This document shows positions 7,360 to 56,138 of a stretch of 64,000 nt of DNA, one piece after another. Position 1 is the stretch's first letter; each line of letters starts with the position of its first letter. Below the pieces are notes generated by a model. The model saw only the letters and a program-made list of their open reading frames with translations. It had not been told where the DNA came from and did no database searches. The translations under genes were made by a program, and so were the position numbers. This DNA comes from Micropruina sp. (lineage in GTDB: Bacteria > Actinomycetota > Actinomycetes > Propionibacteriales > Propionibacteriaceae): contig JBGAJF010000020.1 of assembly GCA_044225075.1 (NCBI GenBank), positions 951 to 64,950 of the forward strand, in the 5' to 3' direction.

Positions 7360-9141
7360 TCACTCCACTAGCTCGGACAACTCCAGCCAGCGTTCCTCGA
7401 GGTCTGCGACCTGAGTCTGCCGCGCGTCGATCTCGGCCATCTTCGCGGCCAGCCCGGCGTAGTCGGTGTGGTCGTGCTCGGCCAACGCGGTCTGGGCGGC
7501 GTGGATCTCATCGGTCAGCTTGGCGATCCGGCGTTCGACCGAGGCTAGTTCCTTCTGCAGCGCCCGAAGCTCGGCACCGGACAGTTCGGCACCATTGGTC
7601 GACGTCGAAACCTCTTCGCCGGAAGATCCGGATGCCGCCTGTCCGGCCCGCAGCCGAAGGTATTCGTCCACCCCGCCGGGCAGATGCCGCAGATGCCCGT
7701 CGACGATCGCGTACTGCTGGTCGGTCACCCGCTCCACCAGGTAGCGGTCGTGCGAGACCACCAGCAGGGTTCCGGGCCAGGAATCGAGCAGATCCTCCAT
7801 CGCGGCCAACATGTCGGTGTCCACATCGTTGGACGGCTCATCGAGGATCAAGACGTTCGGTTCCGAGAGCAGCACCAGCAGCAGTTGCAGCCGTCGCTTC
7901 TGGCCGCCGGACAGCTCCCCGACGCGGGCCGACAGGTGTTCGCGGGCGAATCCGAGCCGCTCCAACAGTTGGGCCGGGGTGAGTTCGCGGCCGTCGATCA
8001 GATAACTGGTCCGGGTTCGGGCCAGCACCTCGCGGACCCGGTCGCCGGCAATCTCGGCCAGCGCGTCGAACTGCTGATCGAGTACCGCCAGCTTCACCGT
8101 CTTGCCGCGCTTCACCCGTCCGGACGTCGGCCGCACCGTGCCCGCGACCAGCCCGAGCAGGGTCGATTTACCGGCGCCGTTGGCGCCCAGGATCGCGGTT
8201 CGCTCGCCGGGCGCGATCCGCCATTCGATGCCGCGCAACACCTCGTTGTCGCCGAACCGGACGCCGGCGTCGATCAGGTCGACGACGTCCTTTCCGAGCC
8301 GGGCGGTGGCCAGCCGGCTCAGCTCCAGCCGGTCCCGCGGCGGGGGAACGTCTTCGATCAGCTGGTTGGCTGCGTCGATCCGGAACTTCGGCTTGGACGT
8401 CCGGGCCGGCGCGCCGCGGCGCAGCCAGGCCAGCTCTTTGCGCATCAGGTTCTGTCGTTTGGCCTCGACGGCGGCCGCCTGCCGGTCACGCTCCACCCGC
8501 TGCAGCACGTAGGCGGCGTAACCGCCTTCGAACGGTTCGACGATCCGGTCGTGCACCTCCCAGGTGGCGGTGGCGACCTCGTCCAGGAACCAGCGGTCGT
8601 GGGTGACCACCAGTAGGCCGCCGGCGTTACGCACCCAGCGTCCGTTGAGGTGGGCGGCCAGCCAGGTGATGCCCTCGACGTCCAGATGGTTGGTGGGCTC
8701 GTCGAGCGCCACCACGTCCCAGTCACCGACCAGCAGCGCGGCCAGCGCGACCCGGCGGCGCTGGCCACCGCTGAGGGTGTCCACGACGGCTTCGAAGTCG
8801 AGATCGCCGACCAGCCCGGCGAGCACGTCCCTGATCTTGGGGTCGGACGCCCAGACATGGTCGGGCAGGTCACCGACGATCGCGTGCCGGACAGTGACGC
8901 CGGAGGGCAGCGAGTCCTCCTGGGTGAGCATGCCGATCCGGACGTCGCCGCGCCGGCGCACCCAGCCGCCGTCCGGTTCGAGGCGTCCGGCGAGCAGCCG
9001 CAGCAGCGAGGACTTGCCGTCGCCATTGCGGCCGACGACACCGATCCGGTCGCCATCGTTCACCCCGAGCGTCACCGAGTCGAAAACGACCCGGGTCGGA
9101 TACTCCAGGTGCAGCGCCTCGGCTCCGAGCAGAAAACCCAC
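7360..9141 (-). CDS. ABC-F family ATP-binding protein (Uup-like)
   Basis: Two ABC domains (GRNGDGKS/LSGGQRRR/LDEPTNHLD and GANGAGKS/LSGGQKRR/LDEPSND), no TM segments, C-terminal coiled coil. Confidence 0.92.
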   Translation of the reverse strand: MGFLLGAEALHLEYPTRVVFDSVTLGVNDGDRIGVVGRNGDGKSSLLRLLAGRLEPDGGWVRRRGDVRIGMLTQEDSLPSGVTVRHAIVGDLPDHVWASDPKIRDVLAGLVGDLDFEAVVDTLSGGQRRRVALAALLVGDWDVVALDEPTNHLDVEGITWLAAHLNGRWVRNAGGLLVVTHDRWFLDEVATATWEVHDRIVEPFEGGYAAYVLQRVERDRQAAAVEAKRQNLMRKELAWLRRGAPARTSKPKFRIDAANQLIEDVPPPRDRLELSRLATARLGKDVVDLIDAGVRFGDNEVLRGIEWRIAPGERTAILGANGAGKSTLLGLVAGTVRPTSGRVKRGKTVKLAVLDQQFDALAEIAGDRVREVLARTRTSYLIDGRELTPAQLLERLGFAREHLSARVGELSGGQKRRLQLLLVLLSEPNVLILDEPSNDVDTDMLAAMEDLLDSWPGTLLVVSHDRYLVERVTDQQYAIVDGHLRHLPGGVDEYLRLRAGQAASGSSGEEVSTSTNGAELSGAELRALQKELASVERRIAKLTDEIHAAQTALAEHDHTDYAGLAAKMAEIDARQTQVADLEERWLELSELVE

Positions 9142-43012: not shown

Positions 43013-43084
43013 CCCATCCGCTCCCCGAACTACTTGGGGCTCGCTGAGTTCAGCGAGCGCCAAGTAGTTCGGGGAGCGGATGGG
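43013..43084. repeat. 72-bp near-perfect palindrome between divergent genes
   Basis: CCCATCCGCTCCCCGAACTACTTGG-g-GCTCGCTGA-gt-TCAGCGAGC-g-CCAAGTAGTTCGGGGAGCGGATGGG. Confidence 0.9.
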
Positions 43085-43106
43085 TTGGCGGGACTACGGT
43101 GAACTC

Positions 43107-43898
43107 ATGGACGTCCTGCTGCTCGGTACCGGGGCTTCGGACGGCGTCCCGAACGCCTGGTGCACCTGCCCCACCTGCGCGGAGGCCCGGGCGTCCGGCG
43201 CGATTCGGACCAACGCGTCCGTGCTTGTCGACGACGTGTTGCTGCTCGACTCCGGACCGGAGGCGCCGCGGCAGGCGCAACGCGCCGGACGCGCCCTGGC
43301 CGGCGTCCGGACGGTGCTGCTCACCCATGCCCACGACGACCACCTCAACCCGTCGTTCCTGATGCACCGTGGCTGGGTCAGCGAACAGCCGCTCGAAGTG
43401 ATCGGTCCGGCACCCGCAATCGGCCGCTGCGTGGACTGGTTGACGCCCGATCAGCAGGCGATCACCCTGACCACCGTCACAGCCGGCGACGAGTTCACGG
43501 CGAACGGCTACCGGGTGCTGGTGCTGCCGGCCACCCACTATGCGCTGGGCGAGGCGGTGCTGTACGCCGTCGAGCACGACGGACGCCGCCTGCTCTATGC
43601 CACCGACACCGGTCCGTGGAGGTCGACCGCGCTCGACCTACTGGCCGGTTGGAGGTTCGACCTGGTGCTGCTGGAGGAGACGTTCGGCGACGCCGTCCCG
43701 CCCGGTGAGGGGCATCACACCTTCGCCAGTTTCGGCACCGCGCTGGAGGATCTGCGCGGCATCGGTGCGATCGACGACTCCACCCGGATGGTTGCGATAC
43801 ACCTCGGTCATGACAATCCGCCGCTGGCGGAACTGACCCGTCGGCTCGCCGAGGTGGGTGCGGAGGTGCATCCGGATCTGACGCTGCTGAAGATCTGA
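43107..43898 (+). CDS. MBL-fold metallohydrolase (PhnP-like)
   Basis: LLGTGASDGVPNAWCTCPTC, THAHDDH, YATDT and HLGH. Confidence 0.85.
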   Translation: MDVLLLGTGASDGVPNAWCTCPTCAEARASGAIRTNASVLVDDVLLLDSGPEAPRQAQRAGRALAGVRTVLLTHAHDDHLNPSFLMHRGWVSEQPLEVIGPAPAIGRCVDWLTPDQQAITLTTVTAGDEFTANGYRVLVLPATHYALGEAVLYAVEHDGRRLLYATDTGPWRSTALDLLAGWRFDLVLLEETFGDAVPPGEGHHTFASFGTALEDLRGIGAIDDSTRMVAIHLGHDNPPLAELTRRLAEVGAEVHPDLTLLKI

Positions 43899-43912
43899 CA
43901 CTGCTGAAGATC
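43875..43912. repeat. 17-bp tandem duplication spanning the MBL hydrolase stop codon
   Basis: GATCTGACGCTGCTGAA / GATCTGACACTGCTGAA / GATC. Confidence 0.8.
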
Positions 43913-43941: not shown

Positions 43942-45104
43942 CCGATCTCATCATCGACGCCCACTTTCGCTTCGGGTGGCGGGTTTCGTGTTATTGCATG
44001 GCATCCACAACGGATGCGGCCAGCGGGCACCGATGGCGAGATCGACAAGTCCCCGAGCAAGGCCGGAGTTATCCACAGATTCCCTGCGGGGTAGTGCCTC
44101 GCGAACCCATGTGTCCGATAGTCGCAGGATGATCCCTCCGGAACTCGCCCAAGTCAACATCTTCACCACCAGCCAGCTGCGCGAGCGCGGCATTGGTCAG
44201 GACGAGGTTCGCCGTGCCGTCAACCAGGGCGAACTCATCCGGCTGAAACGAGGGTGGTACACCTGCCTCGCCCGTGACCAACCGAGCGAGAGGCATCGGC
44301 TTCGGGTACTGACCGAGCTGGCGGATCATCCCGGCACAGTGCCGAGCCACTACTCCGGGGCGGTCCACCTGGGCCTTCCGGTCCATCGGCCCGACTGGCG
44401 GCGCGTCCATCTGATGCGAACAACCTCAGGCCCTGCGCAGAACCGGGCCCACGTCGTGATTCACCGACGAGTGCCCGAAGCCACCCAGGCTGACCCTGCG
44501 CTGATCATCGCTCAGACCGCGTTGTTCTGCCCCATATCGGGGCTGATGTCATTCGACAAGGCACTTCGCGACGGAGCAGCTACCGTGGCGGACTTCGAGC
44601 GCTGGTCGAAGGAACTGGCCGGACGTCCCGGGCACCAGCACCTCCACGTCGTCCGCAGGCTGGCGGACGGGCGTCGCGAGTCTCCACTGGAGTCGCAGAC
44701 AGCGCTGGTGTTCGATCGCTGGGGCTGGTCTATCGAACCCCAGTTTCCGGTACCCGGGACGAGCTATCGTGCCGACGGCCGACTCAAGGGCACTCGCGTT
44801 CTGGTCGAATGCGACGGCTTGGGCAAGTACGACGAGCCTGGTGCCCAGGTTCGGGAGAAGCTGCGCGAAGACGACATCCGCGCACTCGACTGGGAGGTCG
44901 TGCGAGTCACCAGTGAGCTGTTGGACGAGCCGCTCACGCTGGCACGCCGCGTCAAGGCAGCGGTCGACCGAGCGTCTTCCTCCCGGGTCAACCGCGCCTC
45001 GTGATCTCAGCATCGGTGGTCGCTGGCCGGGTGCGTGGCGGCTTTCGTGCAATAACACGAAAGCCGTCCCCGAGCGGTGCAGTGGGCACGGATGGTGAGA
45101 TCGG
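43942..45104. mobile_element. Candidate transposase-free cassette with 57-bp imperfect terminal inverted repeats
   Basis: 43942-43998 and 45048-45104 are inverted copies sharing CCGATCTCA.CATC...GCCCACT...TTTCGTGTTATTGCA; they enclose one gene; mobility is inferred. Confidence 0.55.
44129..45004 (+). CDS. AbiEi-antitoxin-like wHTH plus DUF559/Vsr-like endonuclease domain protein
   Basis: FTTSQL...VRRAVNQGELIRLKRGWY N-terminus, SHYSGAVHLGLP, ESPLES, LVECDGLGKY and EKLREDDIRALDWEVVRVT. Confidence 0.8.
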   Translation: MIPPELAQVNIFTTSQLRERGIGQDEVRRAVNQGELIRLKRGWYTCLARDQPSERHRLRVLTELADHPGTVPSHYSGAVHLGLPVHRPDWRRVHLMRTTSGPAQNRAHVVIHRRVPEATQADPALIIAQTALFCPISGLMSFDKALRDGAATVADFERWSKELAGRPGHQHLHVVRRLADGRRESPLESQTALVFDRWGWSIEPQFPVPGTSYRADGRLKGTRVLVECDGLGKYDEPGAQVREKLREDDIRALDWEVVRVTSELLDEPLTLARRVKAAVDRASSSRVNRAS

Positions 45105-45206: not shown

Positions 45207-48167
45207 CTACTCCAAACCCCAGAAAACGTGGTCCATCACCAGCCGGGCCCGCCGAGTGCGGCGGCGGTACTCGTCCAGGAAGACACTGGATTCGCCCTTG
45301 TCGTAGCCCAATAGTTCGGCGACGGCGGACACCTCGCGCGGGTCGGTGGGGATGGTGTCGGAGGCCCGTCCGCGGAGCAGCATGATCGCGTTGCGGATGC
45401 CGCTGGCCATCGTCCAGGCGTCCCGCAGGGCGGTGGCCTCCTCGGCCGGAATCAGGTCCGCCTCCTCGGCGGCGGCCAGCGCCGCCAGCGTGGACGTCGT
45501 GCGCAACTGCGCCAGCCGGTCGCCGTGCTGCAGCTGCAACAGCTGGACGGCCCACTCCACGTCCGTGAGTCCGCCCGGGCCGAGCTTGGTGTTGCGCAGG
45601 GGATCGCTACCGCGCGGGATCCGCTCCACCTCCATCCGGGCCTTCAGCTTGCGAATCTCGTGCACCTGCTGGCGGGCCAGCCCGCCGGCCGGGTAACGCA
45701 CCTTGTCGATGGCCCGCAGCAGCGCCGTCGACAGCTCCGCATCGCCGGCGCCATGAGCCGCCCGCTGCAAAGCCTGCGCCTCCCAGGTGGACGACCAGCG
45801 CTCGTAGTAGGCCACACACGACGACAGCGACCGCACCATCGGGCCGCCCTTACCCTCCGGGCGCAGATCGACATCGATGTCCAGGGCCGGGTCGGGGCCC
45901 GCCTTGGACAGCACCGCCCGCAGTTCCGAAACCACCTGGGTAGCGATCTTCACCGCGTCCGAGCGGTCGGAGTCCTCGATCACGAAGATCGCGTCGGCGT
46001 CCGACGGGTAGGAAAGTTCGCAGCCACCCCAGCGACCCAAGGCGATCACGGCGATCCGCGGAGACCAGTCGAACCGGCGCCGGACCACCTCGAGCGCGGC
46101 ATCGATGGTCGCGCTGAACAGCTCCGACAAACCGGTCCCGACACTGCCCAGATCGATCAGGCCGAGCAGGTCGGCCATGGCGATCCGGAGCAACTCGCGG
46201 CGCCGGACTGCCCGGACGTGCTGCACGGCGACATTCAGTTCGGAGTGCCTTTTCACCGACGCTCGCATCTCGGCCAGGATCTCGGCCCGCCCGCGAGGGC
46301 GCAGGGATTCAGCGTCGGCCAGCATGCCGACCGATTGCGGGGCCCGCATCATCAGATCGACGGTGTAGCGGCTGGACGACAGGATCTTGGCCAGCCGCTC
46401 GGCCATCACGTCGCCGTCCCGCAGCGCGCGCAGGTACCAATGGGTGCGTCCCATCGCCTCCGACACCTGCCGGAAGGCCAGCAGCGCATGGTCGGGGTTG
46501 GGTCCGGCGGTGAACCAGCCGAGCATCGCCGGCAGCAGTTGGCGTTGGATCTCCGCCTGCCGGCTGAGCCCCTGCGACAGCGCGGCGATGTGCCGCAACG
46601 CCGCCTTCGGGTCGGCGTAGCCGAGCGCCCGCAGCCGCACCTCGGCGCCGTGACTGGTCAGCCGGACGGCTTCGGACGGGATCCGCGCCACCGCCTCGAG
46701 CAGCGGAGAGTAGAACATCCGCTGCTGCAGGCCGAGCACCCGCCGGGTGGCGTCGCGCCAGCGGCTGCGCAGTTCGTCGGCGTCCACCATGCCGACAGCT
46801 CTGGCCAGGCGGCGCACGCTCAGCTCGTCGGTCGGCATCAGGTGGGTGCGGCGCATCTTCTCCAGCTGGATCCGGTGCTCCAGCAGGCGCATCAGCCGGT
46901 AGGCGGCGTCCAGGTCCTTGCCGTCCGAGCGTCCGACGTAGCCGAACTCGATCAGCTTCGCCAGCGCCGGCAGGGTCCCCCGCTGCCGGACGCGGTCGTC
47001 GGCGCGTCCGTGCACCAGCTGGATGAGCTGGACGCTGAACTCGACGTCGCGCAGGCCGCCCGCGCCGAGCTTGATCTCCCGGTCGGCTTCGCGCGCGGGC
47101 AGCAGCGACACCACCCGGCGGCGCATCGCCTGGGTCTCGGAAACGAACTGGTCGTTCTCGGCGACGTGCCAGACCAGTGGCGCGACTATCGCGACGAAGT
47201 CGCTAGCCAGCTCCAGGTCACCGGCCATCGGCCGGGCCTTCAGCATCGCCTGGAACTCCCAGTTCTTGGCCCACTTCTGGTAGTAGGTCGCGTGCGACGA
47301 GAGGGTGCGCACCAGCGGTCCGGCCTTGCCTTCAGGACGCAGGGCGGCGTCGATCTGCCAGATCGTGCCGGCGGCGGTGTGCGCCGAACAGACCCGAGTC
47401 AGCGCACCCACCAGTTTGGTCGCGACGTTCACCGCCTGACCGGTGTTACACACCGGTTCCCCGGATTCGTCCAGCGCGGCTTCGGCGATGTAGAGCACGT
47501 CGACGTCGCTGACGTAGTTGAGTTCCTGTCCGCCGGTCTTGCCCAGCGCGACGATGCCCAGCCGGGTGCATTCCCAACCCGGCACCTCGCCGCGGGCCAG
47601 CGCGAGCGCCGTCTCGACCGTGGCATCGGCCAGGTCGGCGAGTTCTCCGGCGACCTCCGGCAGCATCTCGAGCGCATCGTCGGCGGTCAGATCCGCAGCG
47701 GCGATCCGCAGGATCTCGCGGCGGTAGGCGCGTCGCAGCTCGTCGGAACGAGCCGGGTCGGCGACCGGTGCGGCGGCGTCCGGGTCGGCGCCGACCGCGC
47801 TCAGCAGCGTGCGGCGCAGGGTGGTGGCGTCGCGGCGTCCGGGCGGTTCGGCGAGCACGTCGACATCGGCGGGGTGCGCACCGAGATGCTGGTTGAGCGC
47901 GACGCTGGCGCCGAGCACGCTGATCAACCGCCGCGCCCAATCGCCGTCGGCGCACAATGTGGTGAGCAGGTCGGGGCGCTCGCCGGTCACCCGTTGCAGG
48001 CCGTTGATGGCGAGGTCGGGGTCGGCGCTGGCCAGGATGTCGGCGACCAGGTGATCACAGGTGTCGCCGAGGTCGTCGTACCAACCGTTCAGGATCGCCG
48101 CGGCCCGGTGCGGATCCCCGAAACCGAGGCGCGCCAGGTTGCCCTCGGCGGTCGAGATGCGGCTCAT
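45207..48167 (-). CDS. glnE: Bifunctional glutamine synthetase adenylyltransferase/adenylyl-removing enzyme
   Basis: Two nucleotidyltransferase repeats (ALGKTGGQELNYVSDVD and ALGRWGGCELSYPSDAD), DAALRPEG/DVDLRPEG, IKLGAGGLRDVEF. Confidence 0.95.
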   Translation of the reverse strand: MSRISTAEGNLARLGFGDPHRAAAILNGWYDDLGDTCDHLVADILASADPDLAINGLQRVTGERPDLLTTLCADGDWARRLISVLGASVALNQHLGAHPADVDVLAEPPGRRDATTLRRTLLSAVGADPDAAAPVADPARSDELRRAYRREILRIAAADLTADDALEMLPEVAGELADLADATVETALALARGEVPGWECTRLGIVALGKTGGQELNYVSDVDVLYIAEAALDESGEPVCNTGQAVNVATKLVGALTRVCSAHTAAGTIWQIDAALRPEGKAGPLVRTLSSHATYYQKWAKNWEFQAMLKARPMAGDLELASDFVAIVAPLVWHVAENDQFVSETQAMRRRVVSLLPAREADREIKLGAGGLRDVEFSVQLIQLVHGRADDRVRQRGTLPALAKLIEFGYVGRSDGKDLDAAYRLMRLLEHRIQLEKMRRTHLMPTDELSVRRLARAVGMVDADELRSRWRDATRRVLGLQQRMFYSPLLEAVARIPSEAVRLTSHGAEVRLRALGYADPKAALRHIAALSQGLSRQAEIQRQLLPAMLGWFTAGPNPDHALLAFRQVSEAMGRTHWYLRALRDGDVMAERLAKILSSSRYTVDLMMRAPQSVGMLADAESLRPRGRAEILAEMRASVKRHSELNVAVQHVRAVRRRELLRIAMADLLGLIDLGSVGTGLSELFSATIDAALEVVRRRFDWSPRIAVIALGRWGGCELSYPSDADAIFVIEDSDRSDAVKIATQVVSELRAVLSKAGPDPALDIDVDLRPEGKGGPMVRSLSSCVAYYERWSSTWEAQALQRAAHGAGDAELSTALLRAIDKVRYPAGGLARQQVHEIRKLKARMEVERIPRGSDPLRNTKLGPGGLTDVEWAVQLLQLQHGDRLAQLRTTSTLAALAAAEEADLIPAEEATALRDAWTMASGIRNAIMLLRGRASDTIPTDPREVSAVAELLGYDKGESSVFLDEYRRRTRRARLVMDHVFWGLE

Positions 48168-48191
48168 AGCGGCGATGTTATCGTCGGGCAC

Positions 48192-56042: not shown

Positions 56043-56138
56043 CGTTGGTCGAGATCCACCATCCGTTGGTCGAGACCCACCACCCGTTGGCCGAGCTTGT
56101 CGAGACCTCACGAGGGGTTTCGACAAGCTCAACCAACG
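56043..56138. repeat. REP-like element copy 2, with a 21-bp tandem triplication of its left arm
   Basis: CGTTGG(T/C)CGAG... units at 56043, 56064 and 56085; arms GAGCTTGTCGAGACC / GGTTTCGACAAGCTCAACCAACG. Confidence 0.8.

What the first reader, a model, noticed from the sequence alone, without database searches (positions are those of the whole stretch)
43942..45104. Transposase-free 1.16-kb cassette: 57-bp terminal inverted repeats around a single wHTH-endonuclease gene
Seen: left end CCGATCTCATCATCGACGCCCACT...TTTCGTGTTATTGCA (43942-43998) and the inverted right end (45048-45104) align over 57 bp without net indel and end in a 15-bp identical core. The right end also folds on itself (GGCTTTCGTG-CAATAA-CACGAAAGCC). 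The only cargo is an AbiEi-like HTH plus DUF559/Vsr-like nuclease with codon use that looks atypical by eye, and it sits right after a 17-bp duplication at the neighbouring stop codon. Established: these proteins are annotated as orphan type IV TA antitoxins, and no AbiEii toxin is present here. Inference: the nuclease may recognise its own inverted repeats and mobilise the unit, a possible undescribed class of selfish element analogous to RAYT/REPIN.
Basis: partly seen in the sequence, partly recalled or inferred. Interest (0 to 1): 0.8.

Follow-up and report, generated by a model that had tools for sequence, protein, structure and literature searches.

The report
Nuclease gene framed by cognate palindromes
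A DNA-binding nuclease gene in this Micropruina genome sits between two copies of a 102-base palindromic repeat, as its relatives across Actinobacteria do; the same repeats also occur alone between ordinary genes, a pairing that resembles the REPIN-RAYT partnership but uses a different enzyme class.

Summary
The "57-bp TIRs" are the outer halves of two about 102-bp near-palindromic elements (43943-44044 and 45002-45103). They are 76% identical in inverted orientation (E 8.6e-14).

Between them lies a 291-aa gene under purifying selection. It encodes an AbiEi-type wHTH fused to a Vsr/DUF559-like nuclease.

All 22 full-length Micropruina homologues, and homologues in Serinicoccus, Janibacter, Phycicoccus and a Streptosporangiales MAG, are framed in the same way. 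Each element has:
- 14-bp terminal boxes (CGAT-N6-ATCG) with constant 74-81 bp spacing;
- a central TTTCG..AAC.CGAAA hairpin.

Box sequence follows the protein subclade.

The MBL-glnE site is empty in related genomes. Species with 94-95% identical GlnE carry different cassette types there.

A metagenome scan found at least 27 gene-less copies between housekeeping genes.

This supports the REPIN/RAYT analogy. It does not support a TIR transposon: the relative orientation of the two elements varies, no target duplication was found, and the cassettes are long-term residents of three core loci.

Binding and cleavage of the elements by the nuclease remain inferred. I found nothing on this in the literature searched.

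The parts
43875..43908 (.). 17-bp tandem duplication at the 3' end of the MBL-fold gene (GATCTGACGCTGCTGAA / GATCTGACACTGCTGAA). The second copy supplies the TGA stop. It is probably incidental to the cassette.
   Evidence: D7, 94% identity. L014 has the same MBL 3' end without the duplication, and no context-A locus outside the window's own sequence shows it. It is not repeated at the right border of the cassette.
43943..44044 (-). Left palindromic element (102 bp, degraded copy). 5' box CGATCTCATCATCG at 43943-43956. 3' box CGATGGCGAGATCG at 44031-44044. Central motif TTTCGTGTTATTGCA at 43984-43998.
   Evidence: box-to-box spacing 74 bp. CM R1 79.1 bits, E 3.6e-21. DNA fold z -1.9.
44068..44078 (+). 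Conserved upstream motif GTTATCCACAG. It contains a perfect DnaA-box-like 9-mer, TTATCCACA, that starts 60 nt before the start codon.
   Evidence: same position in 13/23 cassettes across protein clades that are only about 50% identical; single occurrence in the window. TCCACAG or CTGTGGA within 120 nt upstream in 16/30 loci, against a background of 0.013 per 120 nt.
44117..44122 (+). -10-like hexamer GATAGT, 6 nt before ATG 44129. This suggests a leaderless mRNA (inferred).
   Evidence: Read from the sequence; relatives have TTGAAC/TTGACC, then about 17 nt, then CAnnnT, then about 6 nt before the start codon.
44129..45004 (+). Gene for a 291-aa protein. An AbiEi-like N-terminal region (wHTH plus AbiEi C-domain, about residues 1-190) is fused to a Vsr/DUF559-type PD-(D/E)xK nuclease (about residues 195-265). 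Residues D216, E227, D229 and K233 are invariant.
   Evidence: dN/dS 0.07-0.21; gene callers on other contigs use the same 291-aa product.
45002..45103 (+). Right palindromic element (102 bp, well preserved). 5' box TGATCTCAGCATCG at 45002-45015, overlapping the stop codon. 3' box GGATGGTGAGATCG at 45090-45103. Central hairpin GGCTTTCGTG-CAATAA-CACGAAAGCC at 45040-45065.
   Evidence: spacing 72 bp. CM R1 77.5 bits, E 1.1e-20; z -7.4.

Best explanation
The window holds one member of a family of gene-plus-repeat partnerships seen here in several actinobacterial genera.

The gene encodes an AbiEi-type winged-helix DNA binder fused to a Vsr/DUF559-type nuclease. On both sides it is framed by a cognate palindromic element (PE) of about 102 bp. 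Each PE has two 14-18-bp terminal boxes (CGAT-N6-ATCG here), a fixed 74-81-bp spacing between them, and a conserved central mini-hairpin (TTTCG..AAC.CGAAA). The same PEs also exist without the gene in intergenic DNA.

Shown:
- the framing in every relative examined;
- co-variation of box type with protein subclade;
- palindromy kept by compensatory change;
- concerted evolution of the two flanking copies;
- empty sites and type replacement at the MBL-glnE locus;
- gene-less copies elsewhere;
- purifying selection on the protein.

Inferred:
- The wHTH reads the type-specific boxes, in duplex form or at the base of an extruded hairpin or cruciform.
- The nuclease nicks or cuts there.
- The resulting breaks drive recombination or repair. 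That would homogenise the two flanking copies, occasionally invert, delete or replace the cassette, and seed or maintain PE copies elsewhere.

In short, it would work like a RAYT with its REPINs but with double-strand-DNA nuclease chemistry. The conserved TCCACAG motif at -57 is most simply a regulatory site for the leaderless promoter.
For: Anatomy:
- Arms are 102 bp and each is palindromic.
- The protein fold is AbiEi plus a Vsr-like homing-endonuclease or DUF559 domain. Catalytic-type residues are invariant. dN/dS is 0.07-0.21.

Generality:
- 22/22 full-length Micropruina loci have mutually similar palindromes upstream and downstream, against 6/56 control intervals.
- The same holds in Serinicoccus (114 bp, 82%), Janibacter, Phycicoccus and a Streptosporangiales MAG.

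Geometry and specificity:
- Box-to-box spacing is 74-81 bp in nearly every intact element, including those of Serinicoccus; the outliers are degraded or mis-delimited copies.
- Box type tracks the protein subclade.
- wHTH helices carry type-specific residues beside an invariant RLKRGWYT wing.

Palindromy is maintained. 77% of cells are paired against 30-41% when the partners are slid. 31/47 pairs show changes on both sides.

Concerted evolution: upstream and downstream copies are 95-96% identical within L013, L014 and L030, but only 78-88% identical between orthologous copies.

Dynamics:
- Empty MBL-glnE sites exist in L036 and L037. L035 has a gene-less palindromic array.
- L009 and L014 share 95% GlnE identity but only 61% nuclease identity, with different boxes. 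The window and L013 share 94% GlnE identity but 61% nuclease identity.
- The cassette is inverted relative to its flanks in L021 and L029.
- Clade members occur in unique contexts in L011, L016 and L022.
- L025 and L027 carry pseudogenes.

Dispersed copies: of 49 metagenome loci with family elements, 27 are confirmed gene-less and 4 have the gene. They lie between housekeeping genes. At least some come from Micropruina-like genomes. CM scores are 70-97 bits for both solo and flanking copies.
Against: - There is no biochemical evidence that the protein binds or cuts PEs.
- No solo PE was found in 294 kb of the window plus Micropruina and related loci. Copy number per genome may therefore be low (fewer than about 1 per 80 kb) and is unknown.
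- Solos and nuclease genes could not be assigned to the same genome.
- Cassettes occupy three conserved core-gene sites across the genus, so transposition, if any, is rare.
- There is no TSD and no excision footprint.
- Gene-less doublets contain no nuclease remnants.
- The most conserved upstream motif (TCCACAG) is not in the PE, so the wHTH might bind there instead.
- L164 (Ornithinimicrobium) has only an upstream hairpin. L033 and L034 show only weak flank similarity.
- Type replacement could occur by ordinary homologous recombination through the conserved flanking genes.
- The CM was built partly from the solo copies, so their scores are not independent evidence.
Confidence: 0.5

Rival explanations
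1. The gene is a self-contained regulatory, defence or addiction gene: an orphan AbiEi-like repressor fused to a toxic nuclease. The palindromes are its operator and bidirectional hairpin terminators, or insulators. They are kept similar by gene conversion. The gene-less copies are scars left when recombination between the two flanking copies removed the gene, as with solo LTRs, or they are simply related terminator-like palindromes.
For: - AbiEi proteins autoregulate through inverted repeats in their promoters (established knowledge for S. agalactiae AbiEi and M. tuberculosis Rv2827c; the fold match is).
- The downstream element starts within -19 to +135 nt of the stop codon in most loci, and the upstream element follows the neighbouring gene's end. 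Those are terminator-like positions.
- The direct-repeat arrangement in most loci makes loop-out deletion easy.
- Cassettes are vertically stable.
- Presence/absence and rapid type turnover resemble defence loci.
Against: - A terminator or operator role does not explain the fixed 102-bp length, or the same box type at all four positions of a cassette.
- It does not explain conservation of the architecture across orders while the sequence is replaced.
- Solos lie at many sites other than the three cassette sites. The scar model therefore still requires past cassette insertions at many places.
- No AbiEii or other partner gene is present.
- PADLOC matches only the AbiEi N-terminus.
Confidence: 0.25
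2. The gene is a free-standing homing endonuclease gene. The nuclease cuts gene-less alleles of its insertion site after DNA transfer between cells. Repair then copies the cassette in. The palindromes are cargo or repair by-products, and the box-protein match reflects only co-inheritance.
For: - The best structural match of the catalytic domain is the homing endonuclease I-Bth0305I (3r3p, TMt 0.72).
- The gene sits between conserved genes, with empty alleles in relatives.
- Its phylogeny is discordant with its flanks.
- Its codon use is atypical.
Against: - Three unrelated insertion contexts and several unique ones share no evident target sequence.
- The empty site L036 shows no box-like site.
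- Homing does not explain gene-less dispersed PEs, or framing on both sides by whole palindromes of fixed geometry.
Confidence: 0.12
3. The palindromes are MITE-like elements moved by an unidentified enzyme encoded elsewhere. The nuclease gene is merely a passenger caught between two copies, or a preferred neighbour.
For: - Most perfect-box copies found in metagenomes lack the gene: 27 gene-less against 4 with the gene.
- In L094 two elements flank an unrelated 277-aa ORF.
- The relative orientation of the two flanking copies is variable.
Against: - Capture would have to persist or recur in every one of at least 27 loci, across three old paralogous clades and five genera, always with matching box types on both sides.
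- No transposase gene was seen next to any element.
- The background density of elements is far too low for chance adjacency.
Confidence: 0.08

Closest known systems
REPIN-RAYT systems (REP doublets with a REP-associated tyrosine transposase; Bertels & Rainey 2011, PMC3116915; PMC3337134)
   Same: - The repeat is a hairpin-forming doublet of about 100 bp with conserved terminal motifs.
- The single-copy enzyme gene is flanked by its own repeat type.
- Repeat type co-varies with the enzyme lineage.
- Gene-less copies lie in intergenic DNA.
- There is no target duplication.
- The gene stays vertically at fixed loci for long periods.
   Different: - The enzyme is not an IS200/IS605-type HUH/Y1 transposase. 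It is an AbiEi wHTH fused to a Vsr/DUF559 PD-(D/E)xK nuclease.
- The hosts are Actinomycetota.
- There are several paralogues per genome, each with its own type.
- Copy number appears low and was not measured per genome.
- No strand bias suggests a single-strand substrate.
AbiE type IV toxin-antitoxin system (AbiEi antitoxin with AbiEii nucleotidyltransferase; PDB 6y8q)
   Same: The N-terminal 190 residues share the AbiEi fold (Foldseek probability 1.0) and hit Pfam AbiEi_4. Known AbiEi proteins bind inverted repeats (from established knowledge).
   Different: No AbiEii gene is next to any of the loci whose neighbours were read. The C-terminus carries a nuclease domain instead. The inverted repeats are whole 102-bp elements on both sides of the gene, not a promoter operator.
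Vsr-like nucleases: the DUF559 family (NGO0050, 3hrl), the MTES_1575 REase (PMC3710099) and the EDxHD homing endonuclease I-Bth0305I (3r3p)
   Same: The C-terminal domain has the same fold (TMt 0.65-0.72). The motif ...D216...E227-x-D229-G...K233 is invariant. Homologues carry PF04480 and PF18741.
   Different: I-Bth0305I is intron-encoded in a phage. DUF559 proteins have no described link to flanking repeats. Here the domain is fused to AbiEi and embedded in cognate palindromes.
MITEs with their autonomous TIR transposons, and IS200/IS605 elements
   Same: Short palindromic non-coding copies exist alongside gene-carrying copies. As with IS200/IS605, there is no TSD and the ends are palindromic.
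   Different: There is no DDE or HUH transposase. The gene-carrying form is framed by two complete elements, in either relative orientation, not by one pair of TIRs. Gene-less doublets are not internal-deletion derivatives.
Integron gene cassettes with attC sites
   Same: Single-gene units are bounded by imperfect palindromes of 57-141 bp. Structure and length are conserved while sequence varies.
   Different: There is no integrase, no attI and no array. Both flanking sites of a unit are near-identical and cognate to the encoded protein. The units lie singly between core genes.

Membership tests
REPIN-RAYT system | The associated enzyme is an IS200/IS605-like HUH (Y1) transposase (RAYT). | tested here: not met
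   Pfam gives only AbiEi_4 and MTES_1575. The fold search gives AbiEi and Vsr-like nuclease. NCBIfam gives nothing.
REPIN-RAYT system | The repeats are doublets of short palindromic motifs in inverted orientation that can form a long hairpin. | tested here: met
   14-bp boxes in inverted orientation, 74-81 bp apart. 77% of cells are paired across 47 positions, with compensatory changes in 31.
REPIN-RAYT system | The enzyme gene is flanked by its own repeat type. | tested here: met
   22/22 Micropruina loci plus the window, and 4 further genera. Box type follows the protein subclade.
REPIN-RAYT system | Tens to hundreds of gene-less copies are dispersed within the same genome. | tested here: inconclusive
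   27 confirmed gene-less copies were found in metagenome contigs, some of them Micropruina-like. None was found in 294 kb of the window and related loci.
AbiE type IV toxin-antitoxin | An AbiEi antitoxin with an N-terminal wHTH and a C-terminal antitoxin domain. | tested here: met
   Foldseek against 6y8q: 191 aligned columns, probability 1.0. Pfam AbiEi_4. PADLOC AbiEi models.
AbiE type IV toxin-antitoxin | An adjacent AbiEii (DUF1814 nucleotidyltransferase) toxin gene in the same operon. | tested here: not met
   The neighbours are the MBL hydrolase and glnE. Other loci adjoin lipB/E2, sucD, Fpg and similar genes. There is no room for a second gene inside the cassette.
Homing endonuclease gene (free-standing) | The nuclease belongs to a homing-endonuclease fold family. 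| tested here: inconclusive
   There is structural similarity to the I-Bth0305I catalytic domain (E 0.02, TMt 0.72). The same fold is shared by non-homing Vsr and DUF559 proteins.
Homing endonuclease gene (free-standing) | Occupied and empty alleles of the same site exist, and the enzyme cleaves the empty allele. | tested here: inconclusive
   Empty alleles exist in L036 and L037. Cleavage cannot be tested here, and no box-like target is seen in the empty site.
TIR transposon / MITE | Terminal inverted repeats in fixed inverted orientation, bounded by a target-site duplication. | tested here: not met
   Orientation is inverted in the window, L008 and L020, but direct is the better match in L009, L011, L013-L015, L019, L023, L024, L029 and L030. 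No TSD was found at 21 solo borders.
TIR transposon / MITE | A transposase (DDE or other known class) is encoded by the autonomous copy. | tested here: not met
   The only ORF is the wHTH-nuclease.
Vsr/DUF559 PD-(D/E)xK nuclease superfamily | A Vsr-like alpha/beta core with conserved acidic and lysine catalytic residues. | tested here: met
   Fold matches to 3r3p and 3hrl. D216, E227, D229 and K233 are invariant in 29 sequences. Homologues are annotated PF04480 or PF18741. The Pfam hit of the window protein itself is below the gathering score (22.2 against 38.2 bits).
Integron cassette (attC) | An associated tyrosine-recombinase integrase and attI, with cassettes in arrays. | tested here: not met
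   No integrase is present in the flanks of any locus whose neighbours were read. Single units lie between core genes.

The most novel reading that the evidence does not exclude
The many actinobacterial genes annotated as orphan AbiEi-antitoxin or DUF559-domain proteins are the enzyme partners of a second, evolutionarily independent class of REPIN-like intragenomic replicators. In this reading a wHTH reads type-specific 14-18-bp boxes. A Vsr-type nuclease then cuts 102-bp palindromes, possibly as extruded cruciforms or hairpins. This propagates and homogenises the palindromes, and protein and repeat co-diversify into mutually exclusive specificity types.
Probability: 0.4. Interest if true: 0.9.

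Novelty: new variant of a known kind. Interest (0 to 1): 0.75.

Why it matters
If the coupling is functional, four things follow.
- A large family of actinobacterial proteins that now carries uninformative names (orphan type IV antitoxin, DUF559, very-short-patch-repair endonuclease) would get a function.
- REPIN-RAYT-like partnerships would be shown to have arisen more than once, with unrelated enzymes. That bears on whether such repeats are selfish, domesticated or beneficial.
- The many protein-box specificity pairs are natural material for studying how wHTH recognition diversifies.
- Long palindromes that are tolerated and actively homogenised next to core genes (glnE, sucB-lipB, sucD) may affect transcription termination and genome stability in these organisms.

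Micropruina matters in activated-sludge phosphorus removal (from my own knowledge), so the repeats could also serve as strain markers.

Tried and rejected
- Rfam (gathering threshold) on the whole window: no hit. The arms are not a known RNA family.
- A profile search of PDB sequences found nothing. Only the fold comparison was informative.
- The search for related loci with the diverse alignment A2 failed for lack of a conserved stretch. The closer set A3 worked.
- No homologue in PLSDB plasmids. The pattern scan of viral contigs gave 3 unrelated coding hits. There is therefore no evidence for a plasmid or phage vehicle.
- The target-site duplication search at solo borders found nothing.
- I looked for a strand-specific (RNA or single-strand) hairpin signal. 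G:T mismatches number 138 and A:C 119, p 0.26. My orientation assignments are imperfect, so this is a weak test.
- I tested whether gene-less doublets are internally deleted cassettes. They hold no nuclease remnant and no TCCACAG motif.
- I tried to find the orthologous empty site for the L011 cassette in L112. The region is rearranged and cut by the locus end.
- I tested whether the solos sit at the three cassette sites, which would make them loss scars. Apart from the three loci that still carry the nuclease gene (L076, L092, L099), none shows the flanking genes of a cassette site.
- I considered the 17-bp duplication as an insertion footprint and rejected it. It is a lineage-specific tandem duplication that is not mirrored at the other border.
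- About half of the metagenome pattern hits (the CGATCTCCAGATCG...CGATCTGGAGATCG type, and coding sequences) are unrelated. I excluded them by the absence of the central motif.
Full report
**What is at the coordinates**

The window has 68.6% G+C. Every close relative of its genes comes from Micropruina (Propionibacteriaceae, Actinomycetota).

Between the stop codon of an MBL-fold hydrolase gene (43080-43898, +) and the stop codon of glnE (45207-48191, -) lies a single gene. Its most plausible start is ATG 44129. This gives a 291-aa product, the same one that gene callers used on seven other contigs.

It is only part of a longer match. 43942-44043 aligns with the reverse complement of 45003-45104 over 104 columns at 76% identity (E 8.6e-14), and there is no third copy in the 64 kb.

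Each arm is itself an imperfect palindrome (I2 and I4). Folded as DNA, the right arm is strongly structured (-36.1 kcal/mol, z -7.4). The left arm is decayed (z -1.9).

The 17-bp tandem duplication at the MBL stop is real. Among the context-A loci compared it is seen only in the window and in the same-sequence Logan contigs, and it is not mirrored at the other border. I treat it as incidental.

GC3 is 0.76 against 0.85-0.93. The CAI-like index is 0.52 against 0.685 +/- 0.053.

**The protein**

Pfam finds AbiEi_4 and a sub-threshold Vsr-type REase (MTES_1575). PADLOC matches only AbiEi models, over the N-terminal 110 residues. NCBIfam and a PDB sequence search give nothing.

An AlphaFold2 model (pLDDT 92) matches two things:
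- S. agalactiae AbiEi (6y8q) over about 190 residues;
- in its C-terminal about 95 residues, the catalytic domain of the homing endonuclease I-Bth0305I (3r3p, TMt 0.72, rmsd 2.8) and the DUF559 protein NGO0050 (3hrl).

D216, E227, D229 and K233 are invariant across 29 homologues that are as little as 33% identical to the window protein. Pairwise dN/dS is 0.07-0.21. The gene is therefore under purifying selection and the nuclease site looks intact.

No AbiEii gene is adjacent here or at any related locus whose neighbours were read.

**The architecture is a property of the family**

A scan of one genome per species found 23 loci, all in Micropruina, with two or three paralogues per genome.

In all 22 full-length loci the gene has mutually similar sequences of 65-144 bp upstream and downstream. 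Each of these is itself palindromic. The same test on 56 control intervals of the window gives 6 weak hits.

The elements share one plan:
- a 14-bp terminal box, often itself palindromic (CGAT-N6-ATCG);
- about 30 bp of variable sequence;
- a central mini-hairpin TTTCG-N-AAC-N-CGAAA;
- about 30 bp of variable sequence;
- the box again, inverted.

In nearly every intact element, box-to-box spacing is 74-81 bp, so the unit is about 102 bp. The outliers are degraded or mis-delimited copies. An alignment of 56 copies is almost gap-free.

Across that alignment, 77% of symmetric positions are complementary, against 30-41% when the partners are slid. 31 of 47 pairs show changes on both sides. G:T and A:C mismatches are equally common (138 and 119). 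There is thus no sign of selection on one transcribed strand. The symmetry looks like a DNA-level property.

One clade (context B) uses a shorter, 65-bp perfect hairpin.

Outside Micropruina, homologues 31-45% identical to their search query are framed in the same way:
- Serinicoccus profundi: 114 bp, 82% identical, spacing 76 bp;
- Janibacter sp. CX7;
- Phycicoccus;
- a Streptosporangiales MAG.

An Ornithinimicrobium locus has only the upstream hairpin. Two other loci (L033, L034) show only weak flank similarity.

**Protein and repeat co-vary, and the two flanks evolve in concert**

Box sequence follows the protein subclade:

| Loci | Box |
|---|---|
| window, L008, L009 | CGATCTCAcCATCG |
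| L010, L011 | CGTTCTCAGCAACG |
| L012, L013, L014 | CGATCGCGCGATCG |
| L015 | CGATGCCGGCATCG |
| L021, L029 | CGATCTCGAGATCG |
| L020 | CGATCTCGGGATCG |
| L022, L023, L024, L030 | CGATCTCGACATCG |

The wHTH helices (residues 14-32) carry type-specific residues next to an invariant wing, RLKRGWYT. This fits type-specific recognition. It also fits plain co-descent.

Within a cassette the two copies can be 95-96% identical (L013, L014, L030). Orthologous copies in sister species are only 78-88% identical. This means recurrent homogenisation, or regeneration from one template.

The relative orientation of the two copies is not fixed. Inverted is the better match in the window, L008 and L020. Direct is the better match in at least ten loci. 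That is the main reason I reject a TIR-transposon reading.

**Stability and turnover**

The cassettes occupy three conserved sites next to core genes, plus three unique sites:
- context A: MBL / glnE;
- context B: downstream of sucD;
- context C: between the 2-oxoacid dehydrogenase E2 gene and lipB;
- unique sites: L011, L016 and L022.

Protein clades follow these sites, so the paralogues are old and mostly inherited vertically. The loci are nevertheless not static.

- Starting from MBL homologues rather than from the nuclease, I found empty sites. L036 has 34 bp between the MBL and glnE stop codons. The outgroup L037 is also empty.
- L035 has a 362-bp gene-less array of a different palindrome at the site, while the same genome carries a clade-A cassette elsewhere (L011).
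- On a GlnE tree, cassette types are incongruent with the species relationships. L009 and L014 share 95% GlnE identity but carry different types, with 61%-identical nucleases. The window and L013 share 94% GlnE identity, again with 61%-identical nucleases. The window and L008 share 92% GlnE identity and 94% nuclease identity.
- In context C the cassette is inverted relative to its flanks in L021 and L029.
- Two copies are pseudogenes (L025, L027).
- Several loci carry extra whole or partial tandem copies of the element.
- L013 is nested inside a second, different palindrome pair.

**Gene-less copies exist**

In 294 kb of the window plus related loci, every strong covariance-model hit flanks a nuclease gene, apart from the tandem array beside the L024 cassette.

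About half of the hits are unrelated. 49 loci hold true family elements: 102 nt, with the central motif, scoring 70-97 bits. Of these 49:
- 4 adjoin a nuclease gene;
- 27 are confirmed gene-less, with at least 1.3 kb read on both sides;
- 18 are too near a contig end to tell.

The gene-less copies lie between ordinary genes such as mfd, a PLP enzyme and an ABC1 kinase, an aldehyde dehydrogenase and a LuxR regulator, an ADH and a tRNA synthetase, and malQ. The contigs have 65-73% G+C, and at least one is syntenic with a Micropruina MAG. With one exception in which no nuclease gene was seen (L052), the gene-less copies are not at the three cassette sites.

They show no target duplication. The palindrome simply extends 2-4 nt beyond the box.

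Copies of one box type keep the boxes and the central hairpin but differ in the intervening arms, which stay self-complementary.

**Interpretation**

The comparative pattern matches the hallmarks of REPIN-RAYT systems:
- a hairpin doublet;
- an enzyme gene flanked by its own type;
- co-variation of enzyme and repeat;
- dispersed gene-less copies;
- no TSD;
- long vertical residence.

A defining feature of that family, an HUH/Y1 transposase, was tested and is not met. I therefore do not file this as a member. I describe it as working like one, with a wHTH-Vsr nuclease.

My preferred mechanism is as follows. The wHTH reads the boxes. The nuclease cuts at or near them, possibly on extruded structures. 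Break repair then homogenises the flanks, occasionally inverts, deletes or replaces the cassette, and spreads or maintains copies. All of these steps are inferred.

The main rival is an autoregulated orphan AbiEi-nuclease with operator and terminator palindromes, whose solos are loss scars. It explains the positions of the elements. It does not explain the fixed geometry, the identity of all four boxes in a cassette, or the many non-cassette sites.

Homing, and passenger capture by MITEs, explain less. See the rival explanations.

**Novelty**

Full-text searches found no description of palindrome-framed DUF559 or AbiEi-nuclease genes, and none of REPIN-like systems in Actinobacteria. The terms searched were:
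- DUF559;
- MTES_1575;
- AbiEi with endonuclease and palindromic repeats;
- REPIN / RAYT / Actinobacteria.

The library is incomplete, so this is absence of evidence. I rate the finding a new variant of a known kind (a repeat-plus-enzyme partnership). I put a 0.4 chance on it being a mechanistically independent class.

Noticed in passing
window 44068-44078; same position in L008-L011, L020-L024, L029, L030; opposite strand in L031, L161, L164: A perfect DnaA-box-like motif, (G)TTATCCACA(G), starts 60 nt before the start codon in 13/23 cassettes. The core TCCACAG / CTGTGGA recurs upstream of distant homologues in five genera, while the surrounding spacer is not conserved. The background is 0.013 per 120 nt. 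It could be an operator for the wHTH, a DnaA site or a promoter element.
   Followed up: partly
L012-L015, L017-L019, L025, L027 upstream regions; window 44117-44128: Cassettes without the TTATCCACA motif have TTGAAC/TTGACC, then about 17 nt, then CAnnnT, then about 6 nt before a GTG start. This looks like a promoter for a leaderless mRNA. The window has GATAGT 6 nt before ATG 44129.
   Followed up: no
L013 3617-3714 and 5250-5358; partial copies at L030 488-730, L009 1046-1074 and L080 4848-4954: A second, unrelated palindromic repeat (GCGCTGATC...GATCAGCGC type) brackets the whole L013 cassette as an outer inverted pair. It also occurs elsewhere, so it is another dispersed palindrome family in these genomes.
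   Followed up: partly
L035 5793-6154 (Micropruina MAG JADJTM010000002, MBL-glnE intergenic region): A 362-bp gene-less array occupies the site where other species hold the cassette. It has 2 left and 4 right half-palindromes (unit GGGGACGGTTCCTTTACCTGTCGCC, about 60-bp period, -115 kcal/mol as DNA). It may be the remnant of a lost cassette of another type.
   Followed up: partly
L010 3577-3779, L023 2434-2579, L024 3399-3626; also L008 3478-3813, L014 913-1138, L038 2285-2566: Tandem arrays of half-elements (periods of 52, 28 and 41 bp) and other short G+C-rich tandem repeats pile up next to cassettes and element doublets. This suggests repeated slippage or repair at these sites.
   Followed up: no
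L043, L044, L086, L119, L127, L128, L147, L150 and others (soil and peat metagenome contigs): A different 105-bp palindromic element has CGATCTCCAGATCG / CGATCTGGAGATCG ends and an inner GGCGGTTTCCC..GGGAAACCGCC hairpin. It recurs in many unrelated metagenomes and is not part of the family studied here.
   Followed up: no
L094 1676-2907: Two family elements 1.1 kb apart frame an unrelated 277-aa ORF (weak fn3 hit) instead of a nuclease gene. This could be a captured gene or two independent solos.
   Followed up: partly
L031 (Serinicoccus) versus L164 (Ornithinimicrobium): In two related genera the homologous nuclease gene sits in adjacent but different intergenic gaps of the same PEPcase - fpg - PIG-L neighbourhood. 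It lies after fpg in one and before fpg in the other.
   Followed up: no
window 56115-56135; L020 7662-7709; L051 1295-1349: A short motif, GGTTGAGC-N-TGTCGAAACC, is shared between the window, a Micropruina locus and the spacer of a gene-less element doublet. It may belong to another small repeat family.
   Followed up: no
window 7648-8610 versus L076 8-970: This stretch is 83.6% identical to DNA about 3 kb from the E2-lipB cassette site of M. glycogenica. The window contains no lipB or E2 gene, so synteny breaks between the two species near that second cassette site.
   Followed up: partly
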